A stretch of 64,000 nucleotides of DNA from an uncultured Gammaproteobacteria bacterium (GTDB lineage Bacteria > Patescibacteriota > Microgenomatia > Levybacterales > UBA12049): NCBI GenBank assembly GCA_964537895.1, contig CAZIDK010000001.1:134198-198197 (forward strand). The letters run 5' to 3'. Shown in pieces: positions 36,640 to 40,568 of this stretch. Below the pieces are notes generated by a model. That model saw only the letters and a program-made list of their open reading frames with translations. It ran no database searches and was not told the origin of the DNA. How positions within the stretch are numbered: the first letter of the stretch is position 1; every line of letters begins with the position of its first letter. The translations under genes and the position numbers were made by a program.

Positions 36640-37347
36640 GTGTATAATCTTCATATGGAAAACGTAAATGATGTTAAATGGCTGAAGCCAAGTTTGACTT
36701 GGCTGGGACACGCAAGTTTTTCTTTTGTTGATGAAAAAGGCAACAGGGTTTATTACGTTGACCCCTTCAGTTTGCCTACCTCGAATGGCTTGCCGAAGGG
36801 CGATTTAATCTTTATCACCCACGCTCACTCCGATCACTTTTCCCAAACAGATATTCAAAAAATAATAAAAGACGATACGGTAATCATTGCTCCGCCTGAT
36901 ATTTTGGAAAAAGTGGATATTTCCCAAAACAGAAAATTAGGGGTTGAACCCCTAAAAGACTACGAAATTAAAGGTTTTAAATTCAGCACAATTCCCGCTT
37001 ATAATAATCATCCGCAGAAGCTTAACTTTCATCCAAAAAGCAATAATTGGGTGGGATATATTTTTAATTTGAATGATAAAAAAATCTATCATGCGGGCGA
37101 TACGGATTTTATAGAAGACATGAGGCGCTTGAAAAGCTTGAATTTGGATGTTGCCATGCTTCCGATGGGCGGAACCTACACAATGGATGTGACAGAAGCA
37201 GCGGCAGCAGCCAATGCAATTTGTGCCAAAATAACAATTCCCATGCATTATAAAAGTTTATTAAGAGAAAAGTCCGGAGACGCGGAGGAAAAATTTAAAG
37301 CCTTAGTCACAAATTCCAAAGTGGTCATCCTCAAAGAGCTGACATAA
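36640..37347 (+). CDS. MBL-fold metallo-hydrolase
   Basis: ITHAHSDHF (the HxHxDH motif) and downstream His/Asp ligands are present. Confidence 0.8.
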   Translation: MYNLHMENVNDVKWLKPSLTWLGHASFSFVDEKGNRVYYVDPFSLPTSNGLPKGDLIFITHAHSDHFSQTDIQKIIKDDTVIIAPPDILEKVDISQNRKLGVEPLKDYEIKGFKFSTIPAYNNHPQKLNFHPKSNNWVGYIFNLNDKKIYHAGDTDFIEDMRRLKSLNLDVAMLPMGGTYTMDVTEAAAAANAICAKITIPMHYKSLLREKSGDAEEKFKALVTNSKVVILKELT

Positions 37348-37351
37348 GGAT

Positions 37352-37521
37352 TTAAGATTTAGTGCTTCTTTTTGTTTTTCTAATTGATATCATATGCCTA
37401 ATAGTGCTCGAATTTATCTTTAGAATGTTGGCAATCTCTTCGGAGTTAGCGCCGTTTATGACAAGCTGAAGTATTAATAGTTTTTTAATGTCTTCCAAGA
37501 GTTGCTGTGTTTTCTTGTCCA
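37352..37521 (-). CDS. small helix-turn-helix DNA-binding protein (56 aa; not in the supplied ORF track)
   Basis: Hand translation of the minus strand gives MDKKTQQLLEDIKKLLILQLVINGANSEEIANILKINSSTIRHMISIRKTKRSTKS. SEEIANILKINSSTIRHMI is a classic HTH. A 20-bp palindrome lies about 90 bp upstream. Confidence 0.35.
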
Positions 37522-37613
37522 TAGCGCTGCTCTCTTTCTTAATTTTCGTTATACGCTTTTACGCCTTGGAAGTCAAATTAAATTCGTAAATTACTATGCG
37601 TGTTAATTACCAG

Positions 37614-37633
37614 TATACTTGTATACAAGTATA
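37614..37633. promoter_or_regulatory. perfect 20-bp palindrome TATACTTGTATACAAGTATA (candidate operator)
   Basis: The sequence is exactly self-complementary. It lies in the AT-rich spacer between the HNH gene 3' end and the small HTH gene 5' end. Confidence 0.5.
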
Positions 37634-37757
37634 TTAGTAATATCCCGACAGGGAAAATATCTAAACATGAGATGAAAATTATCACTTTCGGAAATTTCTC
37701 AGCGGGTTGAGCGAAGTGAAATCGTGAGCGTAATCGAACCGCTAAGAAGTCAAATTA

Positions 37758-38456
37758 TTATTCAATCTTATCTGATTTTTGAAGGTTGTGTTTCATGCAT
37801 AAAAGCCTGACATTTTTTGCCGTAAGACTTGTTCCACCTTTTGAAAAAGGCAATTCATGGTCAAAATGCAAATTTTTCGTTTCGCTACAAATAACACACT
37901 TCCCCTTATCTCTTTTCCAAACTTCTTTTTTTACTTCTGTTGGAACTAATCTTGTATGTAAAATTTCTTTTTGTAAGCTACCGTCAACTTGTTGATTTTC
38001 TGACAAACGAAGAATAAATCTAAATACACCTCTACCGTCTTCAAAAACTATCTTGTAGTCTACAAGATCAAAAAAACCTTTTAAAGACCAGACGCCAGGC
38101 ATTATTTTTTCGTATACTTTTACAACTTCCGGATTATTTCCATTTTCCTTAAACTCTTTGACAGCTTCGATGAATAAGCCATTTTGGGTTAATTTTCCAG
38201 AAGGAAGTTTATCGGGTTGGTCTTCATATTTTGGATTATGAGTATAAGATCTTTTGGAAACATCGTGCCCTTCGTATTCTATTGTAATTCCGTCTTCGTA
38301 AACTCTATCCTTGTACGGCGCGTTTGATCTTTGCGACATTAAAATAACAGAGTAAGAACTCCCTAGATGAAAATTCATCCCGCGCTGAAGAGCTTGGGCG
38401 TTTTCTGTGTCGCACATTTCTCTATAGCTGAGGATATCATCTCGAATTTTGTTCAT
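37758..38456 (-). CDS. HNH endonuclease with N-terminal SRA-like (modified-cytosine-binding-like) domain; candidate type IV restriction enzyme
   Basis: The C-terminus CVICSETKNLHFDHELPFSKGG...NVRLLCMKHNLQKSD is the HNH (C..C...H-x-DH...N...H) motif. The N-terminal segment YSVILMSQRSNAPYKDRVYEDGITIEYEGHD resembles the SRA signature S-I-V-L-S-G-G-Y-x-D-D-x-D-x-G-x-x-x-x-Y-T-G. Confidence 0.5.
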   Translation of the reverse strand: MNKIRDDILSYREMCDTENAQALQRGMNFHLGSSYSVILMSQRSNAPYKDRVYEDGITIEYEGHDVSKRSYTHNPKYEDQPDKLPSGKLTQNGLFIEAVKEFKENGNNPEVVKVYEKIMPGVWSLKGFFDLVDYKIVFEDGRGVFRFILRLSENQQVDGSLQKEILHTRLVPTEVKKEVWKRDKGKCVICSETKNLHFDHELPFSKGGTSLTAKNVRLLCMKHNLQKSDKIE

Positions 38457-38583
38457 ATTGAATCGGATCCTAGCACTTTGTAGATGTTTTGGGAAGGATA
38501 GGGTTATGTAAGCTTACTGCTTTATATTTCTTTTCTTGCATAATATTGTATAATGGACTACTATAATTAATAAGGAGAAAAAT

Positions 38584-39078
38584 ATGGCTAACATTAGCTT
38601 CAATAAAGAAAAATATAAAGCCGCTTTACTCTATATATCTAACTCCTTAAAGGGAATAGAAGGAAAGAAAAAAGCATATAAGTTGTTCTATTTTTTAGAT
38701 TTCGATTTTTTCGAGGCATACGGCAAATCTTTTACAGGCGATACATATAAAGCACTAGAAATGGGGCCTGCTCCAATATATTTTGATAGTATAGTTCAGG
38801 AACTTATTGACGAGGGTAAAATAGAAATCAAGAAAGTACGAAAATCTCCAACCCATGAGAATGATACTGTTATCTTCAAGCCTCTGACAAATACTGATTA
38901 CAGCTTCACAAAGGAAGAAAAAAGTATGCTTGATAGAATAATTGAATTATATGGTAATCAAACAGGCACGAATCTTGAAAAACTATCTCATGCTGAAGCG
39001 CCATATAACGCCGTTGATCTCTATCAAATAATACCCTACGAATATAGTATTTATAGAGACACTCCGAATTTAGCTTAA
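38584..39078 (+). CDS. Panacea/DUF4065 (SocA-like) antitoxin-domain protein
   Basis: KAYKLFYFLDFDFFEAYGKSFTGDTYKALEMGPAPIYFDSIVQEL matches the DUF4065 core (KLqKLlY.aDf....g.s.TGd.y.a...GPV...vyd.l). A sigma70-like -10 TATAAT and an AAGGAG RBS lie upstream. Confidence 0.6.
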   Translation: MANISFNKEKYKAALLYISNSLKGIEGKKKAYKLFYFLDFDFFEAYGKSFTGDTYKALEMGPAPIYFDSIVQELIDEGKIEIKKVRKSPTHENDTVIFKPLTNTDYSFTKEEKSMLDRIIELYGNQTGTNLEKLSHAEAPYNAVDLYQIIPYEYSIYRDTPNLA

Positions 39079-39085
39079 TCACATT

Positions 39086-39505
39086 ATGCATGATTCTTCT
39101 TCTCCCTGTTGCTTTGTTCATCACCCTAGCTTCATAAAAGAATTAGAAGAATTTGTAGGAAAACATGGATCTCAAGATACGTCAGCCGATGAAACAATTA
39201 ACAATATCCAAAGACTACTCTTTACGCATTTTTATAATAAAAATCCAATGTTTACACCAAAACATCTAGGACAAGCTCAGGGATTCAGTGCTTTTACGAT
39301 TTTCTGGCTCCATATGGTTATACCGAATTGCGTTCTATCCAGAACCCAACTCCCAAAAGCATATTTTTATAAAACTGATGGACATATTAGCTTTTTATGT
39401 CTTGATTCTCATATACAAGATTATAAAGACTCAAAGCTAAGGTCAGTTGCAGCAGAACGACTCCAGGAAATGATTGAGCTTCTTAAAACACATGAAAATC
39501 CTTAG
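39086..39505 (+). CDS. hypothetical protein, candidate toxin/effector partner of the Panacea-domain gene
   Basis: 139 aa, starting 8 nt after the upstream gene, with no recognisable family motif. The pairing is inferred from the tandem arrangement typical of PanA-PanT modules. Confidence 0.3.
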   Translation: MHDSSSPCCFVHHPSFIKELEEFVGKHGSQDTSADETINNIQRLLFTHFYNKNPMFTPKHLGQAQGFSAFTIFWLHMVIPNCVLSRTQLPKAYFYKTDGHISFLCLDSHIQDYKDSKLRSVAAERLQEMIELLKTHENP

Positions 39506-39536
39506 ATAAAAAGCACGGACCCCACATAGGTAAATT

Positions 39537-40568
39537 TTATATCAGTTTTTCTTGCTTGGACTGCTTTGGAAGAGCTATTTTGAGATGTTGATAAGCTGCA
39601 GGGGTGGCGACGCGACCCCTGGTTGTTTTTTTAAGAAAGCCAATTTGCAATAAATACGGCTCTACCACCTCTTCTATTGTGCCGATATCTTCACTTATTG
39701 TTGAGGCAATTGTTTCTACTCCCACCGGCCCGCCGCTATGTTTTTCAATAATAGCTTTTAAGTACCTAACGTCTGACGAATCAAGCCCAACTTCATCAAC
39801 CTCTAGCATATCCAATGCCTCTTTGATAAGATTTTTTGTCAGTTTTCCATCGCTTTTTACCTGCACAAAATCCCTGGCTCTTTTTAAAAGTTTAAGCGCG
39901 ATTCTAGGCGTTCCCCTGGCTCTTTTGGCAATTTCTAAAACCGAATCTCTATCTATCGGAACTTTTAATTTTGCCGCCGCTTTTTCAATAATTTCTTCCA
40001 AATCTTTGGGATCGTAAAAAGAAAGCCTATGCACAACTCCAAATCTATCCCTAAGAGGCGCCGATAAAAGACCTATCCTTGTTGTTGCGCCGATTATTGT
40101 AAATTGAGGCAAATCCAAACGCAAAGTCCGGGCAGAAGGCCCTTTGCCAATGATTATATCCAAAGCATAATCTTCCATTGCCGGATACAAAGTTTCCTCA
40201 ACCACTTTATTTAATCTGTGAATCTCATCGATAAACAAAATATCCCCTTTTTCCAGATTGGTTAAGATTGAAGCCAAATCCCCTGCTCTTTCAATGGCCG
40301 GACCGGAAGTAACCCGAATATTGCTACCCATTTCTTTGGCTATAAGATGCGAAAGGGTGGTTTTACCTAAACCAGGAGGCCCGTACAAAAGAATATGTTC
40401 GATTGCTTCGTGCCGGTTTTTTGCAGCGGTTATACCGATTCTTATAGATTCTTTAACTTTTTTTTGTCCGTAAAACTCTTTCCAGTCTTTTGCCCGTAAA
40501 GAAGTGAAAAGTACCTCCTCCTCGGGAGTCTCCTCTTCGATTTTTTCTTTATCTATTTTTTTTATCAT
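39537..40568 (-). CDS. ruvB: Holliday junction branch migration ATPase RuvB
   Basis: [13 protein letters not shown] Walker [11 protein letters not shown] Walker B, sensor motifs and the C-terminal winged helix are present. Confidence 0.95.

What the first reader, a model, noticed from the sequence alone, without database searches (positions are those of the whole stretch)
37352..39505. Compact defence-like island: HTH with 20-bp palindrome, SRA-like/HNH endonuclease, Panacea (DUF4065) antitoxin-like gene and an unknown 139-aa partner
Four genes unrelated to the flanking housekeeping genes sit between a core MBL hydrolase and ruvB. (i) A 56-aa HTH protein lies about 90 bp downstream of a perfect 20-bp palindrome (candidate autoregulatory operator). 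(ii) A 232-aa protein has a canonical C-terminal HNH motif (CVICS...HFDHELPFSKGG...N...H). Its N-terminal domain, YSVILMSQRSNAPYKDRVYEDGITIEYEGHD, resembles the SRA 5mC/5hmC-flipping signature. SRA-HNH is the architecture of type IV modification-dependent restriction enzymes (the ScoMcrA/TagI class). (iii) A DUF4065/Panacea-domain protein is followed 8 nt later by (iv) a 139-aa protein with no recognisable family. Panacea-domain antitoxins are known to pair with very diverse and often novel toxins, so (iv) is a candidate new toxin/effector family. Together these form a small anti-phage/addiction island in a reduced genome.
Basis: partly seen in the sequence, partly recalled or inferred. Interest (0 to 1): 0.75.

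Follow-up and report, generated by a model that had tools for sequence, protein, structure and literature searches.

The report
Restriction enzyme plus toxin-antitoxin insertion
A roughly 2-kb strain-specific insertion next to ruvB in a Levybacteria-like (CPR) genome carries two ordinary and independent defence modules, a methylated-DNA-dependent SRA-HNH nuclease and a Panacea antitoxin paired with a HigB/RelE-fold toxin; the neighbouring small HTH gene is a resident gene, not part of the island.

Summary

The four-gene island does not hold. Sister genomes keep ruvCAB-HTH (HTH 93-98% identical) with its own promoter. They lack the HNH, PanA and toxin genes and the palindrome. The insert is 37583-39536 and holds two independently distributed modules.

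Elsewhere the palindrome sits on promoters of GntR-family regulators. It is a GntR-type operator, not shown to be the HTH's.

Verdict: new members of known kinds; modest interest.

The parts
37352..37522 (-). 56-aa HTH protein. It is a resident small gene downstream of ruvB and not part of the insertion.
   Evidence: Weak HTH_28, GerE and HTH_23 hits, all below cutoff. It is 98% identical in sister locus L018 and 95% in P0219 (L098). Both loci have ruvC-ruvA-ruvB-HTH without the HNH, PanA or toxin genes. Only 6 clusters were found in 5.8e9 proteins.
37548..37576 (-). The HTH gene's own sigma-70-like promoter: -35 TTGACT (37571-37576), 17-nt spacer, -10 TATAAC (37548-37553), 25 nt before the ATG.
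   Evidence: Positions computed. The sequence block is conserved in L018 and L098, which lack the palindrome. The promoter function itself is inferred.
37583..39536 (.). Strain-specific insertion (about 1.95 kb) between the HTH promoter and the ruvB stop codon.
   Evidence: Nucleotide homology to sister L018 runs 37357-37582 (91%) and resumes inside ruvB (blastn alignment restarts at 39577; ruvB's stop is at 39537). In L018 the HTH promoter abuts the ruvB stop.
37569..37580 (+). Direct repeat copy A, GAAGTCAAATTA. It overlaps the -35 box of the HTH promoter.
   Evidence: There are exactly two exact copies in 64 kb. A single copy is present at the empty site in L018.
37746..37757 (+). Direct repeat copy B, GAAGTCAAATTA (17-mer GCTAAGAAGTCAAATTA from 37741). 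It abuts the HNH stop codon.
   Evidence: The same 17-mer (up to 2 mismatches) flanks a Zincin_1 gene in L014. It may be a target duplication or att-like core; unexplained.
37614..37633 (.). Perfect 20-bp palindrome TATACTTGTATACAAGTATA, a GntR-family-type operator sequence with no GntR gene nearby.
   Evidence: It has exact matches in 54 metagenome contigs. Most of these lie immediately after the -10 of a GCGTTTGCAA-N17-TATTAA promoter, upstream of 226-248-aa GntR-family regulators. No GntR homologue is in the window. It is absent from L018 and L098.
37992..38456 (-). SRA-like (PUA-superfamily) modified-base sensor domain of the 232-aa protein, about residues 1-155.
37758..37949 (-). HNH (beta-beta-alpha-Me) nuclease domain of the 232-aa protein, about residues 170-232, plus the stop codon.
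38457..38583 (.). Divergent intergenic region between the HNH and panA genes. It has an AGGAG ribosome-binding site before panA and promoter-like TTGCAT and TGTATAAT elements.
   Evidence: Read directly from the sequence. It also holds the left arm of a 16-nt inverted repeat, 38519-38534 / 38606-38621, whose right arm lies just inside panA. Function is inferred only.
38584..39078 (+). PanA: a single-domain Panacea (DUF4065) antitoxin, 164 aa.
   Evidence: PF13274 4.6e-18, 66.6 bits, residues 33-141. A 164-165-aa Panacea gene precedes every homologue of the 139-aa gene that was examined.
39086..39505 (+). 139-aa RelE/ParE-fold (HigB/YafQ-like) toxin, the PanT partner of PanA.

Best explanation
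The stretch is a mosaic, not a four-gene system.

(1) The 56-aa HTH gene is a lineage-conserved small gene. It sits directly after ruvCAB and has its own promoter.

(2) About 1.95 kb (37583-39536) was inserted between that promoter and the ruvB stop in this strain. The insert carries two independent, self-contained defence or addiction modules.

(a) The first is a solo SRA-HNH type IV modification-dependent restriction endonuclease. Inferred mechanism: the N-terminal SRA domain flips a modified cytosine (5mC or 5hmC) of incoming DNA into a Tyr/Tyr/Asp pocket. The C-terminal HNH domains, probably as a dimer, then nick or cut nearby, as in TagI and ScoA3IV. No methyltransferase is needed.

(b) The second is a bicistronic type II toxin-antitoxin pair. 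The Panacea-domain antitoxin PanA is translated first. The toxin gene follows 7 nt later. The toxin has the RelE/ParE fold and is closest to HigB and YafQ. Inferred mechanism: it is a ribosome-dependent mRNA endonuclease held inactive in a complex with PanA. Loss or inactivation of PanA, through phage infection or loss of the element, frees the toxin and arrests translation.

(3) The 20-bp palindrome lies in a 165-nt non-coding piece of the insert. That piece is bounded by a 12-nt direct repeat. The palindrome has the sequence of a GntR-family operator. It is either a relic or a site for a GntR-type regulator encoded elsewhere, and it is not an established operator of the HTH.

Shown: gene integrity, domain and fold identities, conserved PanA-toxin adjacency, and presence or absence in relatives. 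Inferred: all biochemical activities, substrate specificity, and regulation.
For: Fold identities:
- Panacea.

TA module:
- The Panacea gene lies immediately upstream of the toxin homologue in six different neighbourhoods. These are next to an integrase with FtsK, an acetyltransferase, NusA/DnaJ, AAA_14, an HTH_31 gene, and ruvB here.
- The two genes align together as one unit at 68-70% nucleotide identity.
- Panacea pairing with RelE-superfamily RNases is documented (PMC8832971, PMC10440598).

Insertion:
- L018 has ATPase-MBL-HTH(98%)-RuvB(94.5%)-RuvA-RuvC and none of the three genes.
- L098 has ruvCAB-HTH.
- Homology breakpoints are given.

Independence of the modules:
- HNH relatives sit beside MazG-like plus DUF2075-helicase genes, or an NmeDI-like REase, and never beside PanAT.
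- PanAT relatives never sit beside the HNH gene.

Palindrome.
Against: - No sequence-level link ties the 139-aa family to any RelE, HigB, YafQ or ParE profile. Pfam gives marginal single-member hits only. PDB profile searches are empty. hhalign to YafQ and RelE is not significant.
- The Pfam SAD_SRA model does not detect the N-domain.
- The pocket loop of the SRA model has low confidence (pLDDT below 50 at residues 43-45).
- The Tyr-Asp spacing (Y48-x-D50) differs by one residue from TagI and UHRF1 (Y-x2-D).
- Most close relatives of the HNH gene lie next to MazG-like and helicase genes that are absent here. A solo copy might depend on missing partners.
- The fold alone cannot separate an RNase from a ParE-like gyrase poison.
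- No experiment supports any activity.
Confidence: 0.78

Rival explanations
1. One reading: one four-gene island. The HTH autoregulates through the 20-bp palindrome, and the 139-aa protein is a new toxin or effector family.
For: All four genes are adjacent, and the palindrome is upstream of the HTH on its coding strand. The palindrome's promoter-like side (ATATTACTAA before the palindrome on the minus strand) is oriented toward the HTH, as in GntR promoters. The 139-aa protein has no sequence family.
Against: The HTH and its promoter are conserved after ruvB in L018 and L098 without the palindrome and without the other genes. Elsewhere the palindrome belongs to GntR-family regulators. The toxin fold is RelE/ParE. 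The HNH and PanAT modules never co-occur in the other loci examined.
Confidence: 0.05
2. The 139-aa protein is a ParE-like DNA-gyrase poison, or has some other non-RNase activity on the RelE/ParE fold, rather than being a ribosome-dependent mRNase.
Against: The best matches are all RNases: HigB1, HigB2, HigB, YafQ, HP0894 and aRelE. The family keeps an invariant His (H109) and a near-invariant Tyr (Y113) at the end of the last strand, plus basic residues (K/R91, R125). RelE, YafQ, HigB and YoeB place their catalytic residues there (my own knowledge). The non-significant hhalign alignment places H109 on YafQ His87.
Confidence: 0.15
3. The solo SRA-HNH gene is a non-functional or partner-dependent remnant of a larger MazG-like / DUF2075-helicase / SRA-HNH system rather than an autonomous restriction enzyme.
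For: In L014, L015 and L017 the orthologue lies beside MazG-like plus SLFN-g3/DUF2075 helicase genes (PADLOC PDC-S41, Nhi and AbiO-like) or an NmeDI_C REase. In L014 it overlaps the neighbouring gene. No such genes are in the window.
Against: The ORF is full length, at 232 aa against 232-233 in the family. It keeps every invariant residue. It is 92% identical to its nearest relative, which argues against decay. Characterised SRA-HNH enzymes (TagI, ScoA3IV) work alone (PMC6212794, PMC6765204). The gene order relative to its partners varies between loci.
Confidence: 0.15
4. The 139-aa ORF and the Panacea gene are housekeeping or regulatory genes rather than a toxin-antitoxin pair.
For: No toxicity data exist. 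Panacea domains may have sensory roles (PMC10440598).
Against: The pair is absent from the closest sister genome. Its distribution is patchy and small, at 43 clusters and 57 representatives at 50% identity out of 1.84e9 proteins. It sits in unrelated contexts, one of them next to an integrase. It has a toxin fold.
Confidence: 0.05

Closest known systems
SRA-HNH type IV modification-dependent restriction endonucleases (TagI, ScoA3IV/Sco5333, TbiR51I)
   Different: At 232 aa it is shorter than TagI (about 285 aa). It is only 12-20% identical to solved SRA domains, and Pfam SAD_SRA does not see it. The Tyr-Asp spacing is one residue shorter. It comes from AT-rich CPR/Patescibacteria, whereas known members are mostly GC-rich Actinobacteria and Proteobacteria (PMC6765204). 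The CPR clade is unusually conserved (at least 72% identity over 120 clusters). It is often linked to MazG-like and DUF2075 helicase genes.
PanAT toxin-antitoxin systems (Panacea/DUF4065 antitoxins; Kurata et al. 2022, PMC8832971; NetFlax, PMC10440598)
   Same: The upstream gene has a Panacea domain above the Pfam cutoff. The bicistronic arrangement is tight, with the antitoxin first. The distribution is patchy and mobile. The toxin has an RNase-type fold. MqsR-like toxins, which belong to the RelE superfamily, are the commonest PanT class.
HigB / YafQ / RelE ribosome-dependent mRNA endonucleases (RelE/ParE superfamily)
   Different: Identity is 8-18% with no profile-level match. It has an extra long C-terminal helix (residues 115-136) and a conserved N-terminal F-x-HH-P-x-F segment. 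It is paired with Panacea instead of HigA, DinJ or RelB.
GntR-family (FadR/FCD-type) autoregulatory operators
   Same: The 20-mer is identical to sites placed just after the -10 box of promoters of GntR-family regulator genes in about 35 unrelated metagenome contigs. From memory, it also matches the Bacillus subtilis gnt operator core ATACTTGTATACAAGTAT. I could not verify this in the paper library.
   Different: There is no GntR gene next to it or anywhere in the 64-kb window. No good -35 box is present, and the nearest downstream gene is a non-GntR 56-aa HTH 91 nt away.

Membership tests
SRA-HNH type IV restriction endonuclease | N-terminal domain with the SRA (PUA-superfamily) fold | tested here: met
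SRA-HNH type IV restriction endonuclease | Sequence match to Pfam SAD_SRA (PF02182) | tested here: not met
   No SAD_SRA hit even at E up to 1. PDB profile searches also find no SRA chain.
SRA-HNH type IV restriction endonuclease | Flipped-base pocket: two Tyr walls plus a carboxylate (TagI Tyr55, Asp58, Tyr67; UHRF1 equivalents) | tested here: inconclusive
   Y48, D50 and Y61 are invariant in 50 family members and lie in the corresponding segment. However, the alignment is manual, the spacing differs by one residue, and the model is weak there (pLDDT below 50 at residues 43-45).
SRA-HNH type IV restriction endonuclease | C-terminal HNH / beta-beta-alpha-Me nuclease with catalytic His and zinc ligands | tested here: met
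SRA-HNH type IV restriction endonuclease | Cleavage dependent on 5mC/5hmC | not testable with these tools
   This needs purified enzyme on modified and unmodified DNA, or phage restriction assays.
PanAT (Panacea) type II toxin-antitoxin | Antitoxin carries the Panacea/DUF4065 domain | tested here: met
   PF13274 at 66.6 bits against a cutoff of 25.7, E 4.6e-18.
PanAT (Panacea) type II toxin-antitoxin | Conserved two-gene adjacency in varied genomic contexts | tested here: met
   A Panacea gene lies 2-14 nt upstream of the toxin homologue in L001-L013, covering five different neighbourhoods besides this one. The pair is absent from sister L018.
PanAT (Panacea) type II toxin-antitoxin | Toxicity of the partner and neutralisation by PanA through complex formation | not testable with these tools
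RelE/ParE toxin superfamily (HigB/YafQ-like) | RelE/ParE fold | tested here: met
RelE/ParE toxin superfamily (HigB/YafQ-like) | Membership of a described sequence family (Pfam HigB, YafQ, RelE or ParE models) | tested here: not met
   The query has 0 families. Among 40 diverse members there is one marginal YafQ_toxin hit (0.033) and one ParE-like hit (0.074). hhalign to YafQ and RelE gives probability below 1%.
RelE/ParE toxin superfamily (HigB/YafQ-like) | Catalytic acid/base residues and ribosome-dependent mRNA cleavage | tested here: inconclusive
   H109 is invariant, and Y113, R125 and Q88 are nearly invariant. They occupy plausible positions, but no structural superposition of active sites or any assay could be done.
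Autoregulatory operator of the 56-aa HTH | Operator co-conserved with the regulator gene and overlapping its promoter | tested here: not met
   L018 and L098 keep the HTH gene and its promoter but have no palindrome. The palindrome lies 38-57 nt upstream of the -35 box.
GntR-family operator | Sequence identical to sites on promoters of GntR-family genes, with a cognate regulator nearby | tested here: inconclusive
   The sequence criterion is met. No GntR gene is in the window, and the rest of the genome was not available.
Variable genomic island | Present here and absent at the same site in close relatives | tested here: met
   Met for 37583-39536 (HNH, PanA, toxin). Not met for the HTH gene, which is conserved at the site.

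The most novel reading that the evidence does not exclude
Two non-exclusive readings remain open.

(a) The PanA partner founds a CPR-restricted branch of the RelE/ParE superfamily. It has its own conserved set (N-terminal F-x-HH-P-x-F, P90, H109, Y113, R125) and an added C-terminal helix. A bare Panacea domain would neutralise it directly, which differs from the ZBD-mediated route shown for MqsR:PanA. The target or mechanism could therefore differ from classical HigB and YafQ.

(b) The recurring 12-17-nt core GCTAAGAAGTCAAATTA occurs once at the empty site in L018. It occurs twice here, bracketing the 165-nt palindrome piece and abutting the HNH gene. It occurs twice around a single gene in L014. 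This could mark a site-specific cassette-insertion mechanism in these Levybacteria.
Probability: 0.12. Interest if true: 0.55.

Novelty: new member of a known kind. Interest (0 to 1): 0.3.

Why it matters
CPR/Patescibacteria have tiny genomes, and their defence repertoire is poorly charted. This locus shows that a strain can gain a type IV restriction enzyme and a PanAT module in one hotspot next to ruvB.

It has practical value for annotation. Pfam's SRA model misses a very large and highly conserved CPR clade of SRA-HNH enzymes. A RelE/ParE-fold PanT family also has no profile in Pfam, NCBIfam, PADLOC or PHROGs. Both families could be added to defence and TA annotation resources.

Nothing here challenges current understanding of either system.

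Tried and rejected
- Sequence searches of the 139-aa protein and of two family profiles (A1, A3) found nothing meaningful. This covered Pfam, NCBIfam, PADLOC, PHROGs and PDB. The only PDB 'hit' (4u08, an LRR protein) is a repeat or compositional artefact spread over many weak stretches.
- hhalign of A3 against E. coli YafQ and RelE was not significant.
- An Rfam scan of 37300-39700 at E up to 1 gave no hit.
- Folding of the 175-nt non-coding piece gave z -2.9, driven by the palindrome, with no convincing terminator or RNA.
- There are no tRNA genes in the window, and no integrase or transposase in or next to the insert.
- Neither the PanT family nor full-length SRA-HNH relatives turned up in IMG/VR. 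One partial 48% match was found, and the rest were HNH-only hits.
- The 17-mer repeat found in six viral contigs is consistent with chance.
- A search of the paper library for the operator sequence found nothing.
- I considered whether the HNH could be a homing or phage HNH. I rejected this because of the fused SRA domain and the chromosomal defence-type neighbours in relatives.
Full report
**Observation**

All four ORFs exist exactly as listed. They are a 56-aa ORF at 37352-37522(-), a 232-aa ORF at 37758-38456(-), a 164-aa ORF at 38584-39078(+) and a 139-aa ORF at 39086-39505(+). They lie between an MBL-fold hydrolase (PF13483, 4.8e-27) and ruvB, followed by ruvA and ruvC.

The palindrome TATACTTGTATACAAGTATA is perfect, at 37614-37633, and unique in the window. 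It lies 91 nt upstream of the HTH start codon. A perfect 20-nt palindrome of any sequence turns up in 20 of 200 composition-preserving shuffles of the window. Its mere existence is therefore only weakly significant. GC content is slightly lower over the region, 0.32-0.37 against about 0.38-0.41 in the flanks.

**The 232-aa protein**

Its C-terminus (about residues 165-231) is an HNH nuclease.
- PHROG HNH families reach 1.4e-8 and a PADLOC REase_II model reaches 1.4e-6.
- Pfam HNH_5 and HNH score 4e-4 and 2e-3, below their cutoffs.
- In an alignment of 50 relatives, C187, C190, H197, D199, H200, N215, C220, H223 and N224 are all invariant.

The N-terminal 160 residues match no profile. Pfam SAD_SRA finds nothing, and a family profile finds no SRA chain in the PDB.

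- MspJI, AspBHI, SauUSI, AbaSI and PvuRts1I further down

YTH and EVE-HNH (VcaM4I) structures score only 4.4-4.8. In TagI the flipped-base pocket is built from Tyr55, Asp58 and Tyr67 (PMC6212794). The correspondence is plausible, but it rests on a manual alignment. The spacing is off by one residue, and the model is poor in that loop.

I conclude that this is a bona fide SRA-HNH protein of type IV architecture. It is a divergent clade that current HMMs do not see.

The clade is large and tightly conserved in CPR bacteria. Those that carry names come from Levybacteria or Patescibacteria. In three long contigs the orthologue lies next to a MazG-like gene. With that comes either a DUF2075/SLFN-g3 helicase (PADLOC PDC-S41, Nhi and AbiO-like) or an NmeDI-like REase. 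None of these partners is in this window, so the gene is solo here. Linkage of modification-dependent enzymes to DUF2075 NTPases has been noted before (PMC6765204).

**The Panacea gene and its partner**

The 164-aa protein is a single-domain Panacea protein (PF13274, 66.6 bits, residues 33-141). The 139-aa protein has no hit in Pfam, NCBIfam, PADLOC, PHROGs or PDB sequences.

Its family is small. There are 43 clusters at 90% identity among 5.8e9 proteins. A profile finds only 57 representatives among 1.84e9.

I examined homologues on longer contigs in five further neighbourhoods. In each, a 164-165-aa Panacea gene sits 2-14 nt upstream:
- beside a phage-type integrase and an FtsK/SpoIIIE gene
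- beside an acetyltransferase
- between an HD-domain gene downstream of nusA and dnaJ
- beside an AAA_14 gene
- beside an HTH_31 gene

The two genes also align as a single unit at 68-70% nucleotide identity. This is the signature of a mobile bicistronic TA module.

The toxin's AlphaFold2 model is confident (pLDDT 86.9, pTM 0.83). Its topology is beta-alpha-alpha-beta4 plus a long C-terminal helix.
- Foldseek independently ranks YafQ, HP0894, HigB and archaeal RelE first, at probability 0.98-1.00.

Across the wider family, P90 and H109 are invariant, and Q88, L104, Y113, A122 and R125 are nearly so. From my own knowledge, a His and a Tyr at the end of the last strand is where YafQ, HigB, RelE and YoeB keep catalytic residues. 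A non-significant hhalign alignment places H109 on YafQ His87.

Gene (iv) is therefore not a new kind of toxin. It is a new sequence family within the RelE/ParE fold, most like the ribosome-dependent mRNases. Kurata et al. report mRNA interferases, above all MqsR-like ones, as the commonest identifiable PanA partners (PMC8832971).

There is one real difference. In the validated MqsR:PanA pairs, neutralisation is done by an MqsA-type zinc-binding domain fused to Panacea (PMC10440598). Here PanA is a bare Panacea domain.

**Is it one island?**

It is not. The closest sister locus, L018, has MBL at 82% and RuvB at 94.5% identity. Its gene order is P-type ATPase, MBL, HTH (98% identical), RuvB, RuvA, RuvC, with no HNH, PanA or toxin.

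Another genome, L098, has ruvC-ruvA-ruvB-HTH with a different downstream gene. The HTH family is tiny, at six clusters.

Nucleotide homology with L018 runs through the HTH gene and its upstream region to window position 37582. It resumes inside ruvB. The conserved upstream block holds a good promoter: TTGACT, 17 nt, TATAAC, then 25 nt to the ATG. The same block is present in L018 and L098.

So the HTH is a resident gene downstream of ruvB, and the strain-specific insert is 37583-39536. Within the insert, the HNH and PanAT modules have unrelated distributions (against 22-24). The insert is therefore a composite of two modules, with no integrase, transposase or tRNA.

**The palindrome**

The palindrome lies inside the inserted DNA, 38-57 nt upstream of the -35 box of the HTH promoter. 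It is absent where the HTH gene is otherwise conserved. That argues against it being the HTH's autoregulatory operator.

An exact-match scan of metagenome contigs found it in 54 contigs. In most of them it sits directly after the -10 element of a stereotyped promoter, GCGTTTGCAA-N17-TATTAA/TATTAC. It is followed within about 30 nt by a ribosome-binding site and a 226-248-aa protein. Those proteins are GntR-family regulators (PF00392, 1e-13 to 1e-15).

So it is a GntR-type operator sequence. From memory it matches the B. subtilis gnt operator core, but I could not confirm this in the library.

No GntR homologue is in the window. On the minus strand the palindrome is preceded by ATATTACTAA. This resembles the -10 side of those promoters and points toward the HTH gene, but there is no convincing -35 box. 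It is either a relic carried in with foreign DNA, or a site for a regulator encoded elsewhere in the genome.

**An unexplained detail**

The 165-nt non-coding piece that holds the palindrome is bracketed by an exact 12-nt direct repeat, GAAGTCAAATTA, at 37569-37580 and 37746-37757. These are the only two exact copies in 64 kb.
- The second copy extends to a 17-mer, GCTAAGAAGTCAAATTA, that abuts the HNH stop codon.
- The empty site in L018 has one copy, GCTAAAAAGTCAAATTA, overlapping the ruvB stop codon.
- In L014 two copies flank a single Zincin_1 gene.
- A degenerate third copy may sit at the ruvB end of the insert (AGGTAAATTTTA, read).

This looks like a target duplication or a short recombination core. 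With so few instances I cannot go further.

**Mechanism (inferred, not shown)**

The SRA-HNH enzyme would recognise 5mC or 5hmC in invading DNA by base flipping and cut nearby with its HNH domain. This needs the host not to carry the same marks.

PanA would bind and silence the HigB-like toxin. Release of the toxin, on phage infection or loss of the module, would cleave ribosome-bound mRNA and halt growth.

The main rivals are:
- a ParE-like, non-RNase activity for the toxin (about 0.15)
- partner dependence or inactivity of the solo HNH (about 0.15)

**Verdict**

The SRA call was right even though the proposed HMM test fails. The locus resolves into known kinds: a type IV SRA-HNH enzyme and a PanA:RelE-fold TA pair, inserted beside a resident HTH gene, plus an orphan GntR-type operator.

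Novelty is at the level of new members, that is, unannotated sequence families in CPR bacteria. Interest is modest, at about 0.3.

Noticed in passing
window 37569-37580 and 37741-37757; L018 5006-5022; L014 12253-12269 and 12665-12681: A 12-17-nt core, GCTAAGAAGTCAAATTA, brackets the 165-nt palindrome-bearing piece and abuts the HNH stop codon. It occurs once at the uninterrupted ruvB/HTH junction of the sister genome, and twice around a single Zincin_1 gene in a related contig. It may be a target-site duplication or an att-like core for cassette insertion.
   Followed up: partly
L014 3802-6699; L015 6001-8982; L017 4534-6702: Orthologues of the SRA-HNH gene in other CPR genomes are linked to a MazG-like gene. 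With it comes either a DUF2075/SLFN-g3 helicase (PADLOC PDC-S41, Nhi and AbiO-like) or an NmeDI_C-type REase. In L014 the genes overlap. This could be an uncharacterised multi-gene modification-dependent system, and none of the partner genes is in the window.
   Followed up: partly
window 37758-38456 (family level): The CPR SRA-HNH clade is unusually conserved for a defence gene.
   Followed up: no
window 37614-37633; loci L104-L157: The exact 20-mer palindrome is a recurrent operator placed right after the -10 of GCGTTTGCAA-N17-TATTAA promoters of GntR-family regulator genes in many unrelated, mostly low-GC, metagenome contigs. Here it is an orphan with no GntR gene in 64 kb.
   Followed up: yes
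window 37352-37522; L018 4795-4962; L098 5001-5168: A 55-56-aa HTH protein (6 clusters known, 85-98% identical apart from one at 62%) is conserved immediately downstream of ruvB, with its own TTGACT-17-TATAAC promoter, in this Levybacteria lineage. Its function is unknown, and it is more conserved than its neighbours (98% against RuvB at 94.5% and MBL at 82%).
   Followed up: partly
window 36640-37347; loci L030-L046: The MBL-fold hydrolase has 43-54% identical relatives in DPANN archaea (Aenigmatarchaeota, Micrarchaeota), ranking just below the Levybacteria homologues. This suggests gene exchange between CPR bacteria and DPANN archaea, or mis-binned contigs.
   Followed up: no
L018 (CAYIOB010000005.1): The record is titled 'uncultured Gammaproteobacteria bacterium', but it is collinear with this Levybacteria-like window (RuvB 94.5%, HTH 98%). 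The taxonomic label is probably wrong. It also carries a different 325-bp insertion, with a 97-aa ORF, between MBL and HTH.
   Followed up: no
L001/L002 769-5995: In one genome the PanA-toxin pair sits at the edge of an apparent integrative element (FtsK/SpoIIIE, SHOCT, Omega-repressor-like and phage-integrase genes). This is consistent with mobility of the module.
   Followed up: no
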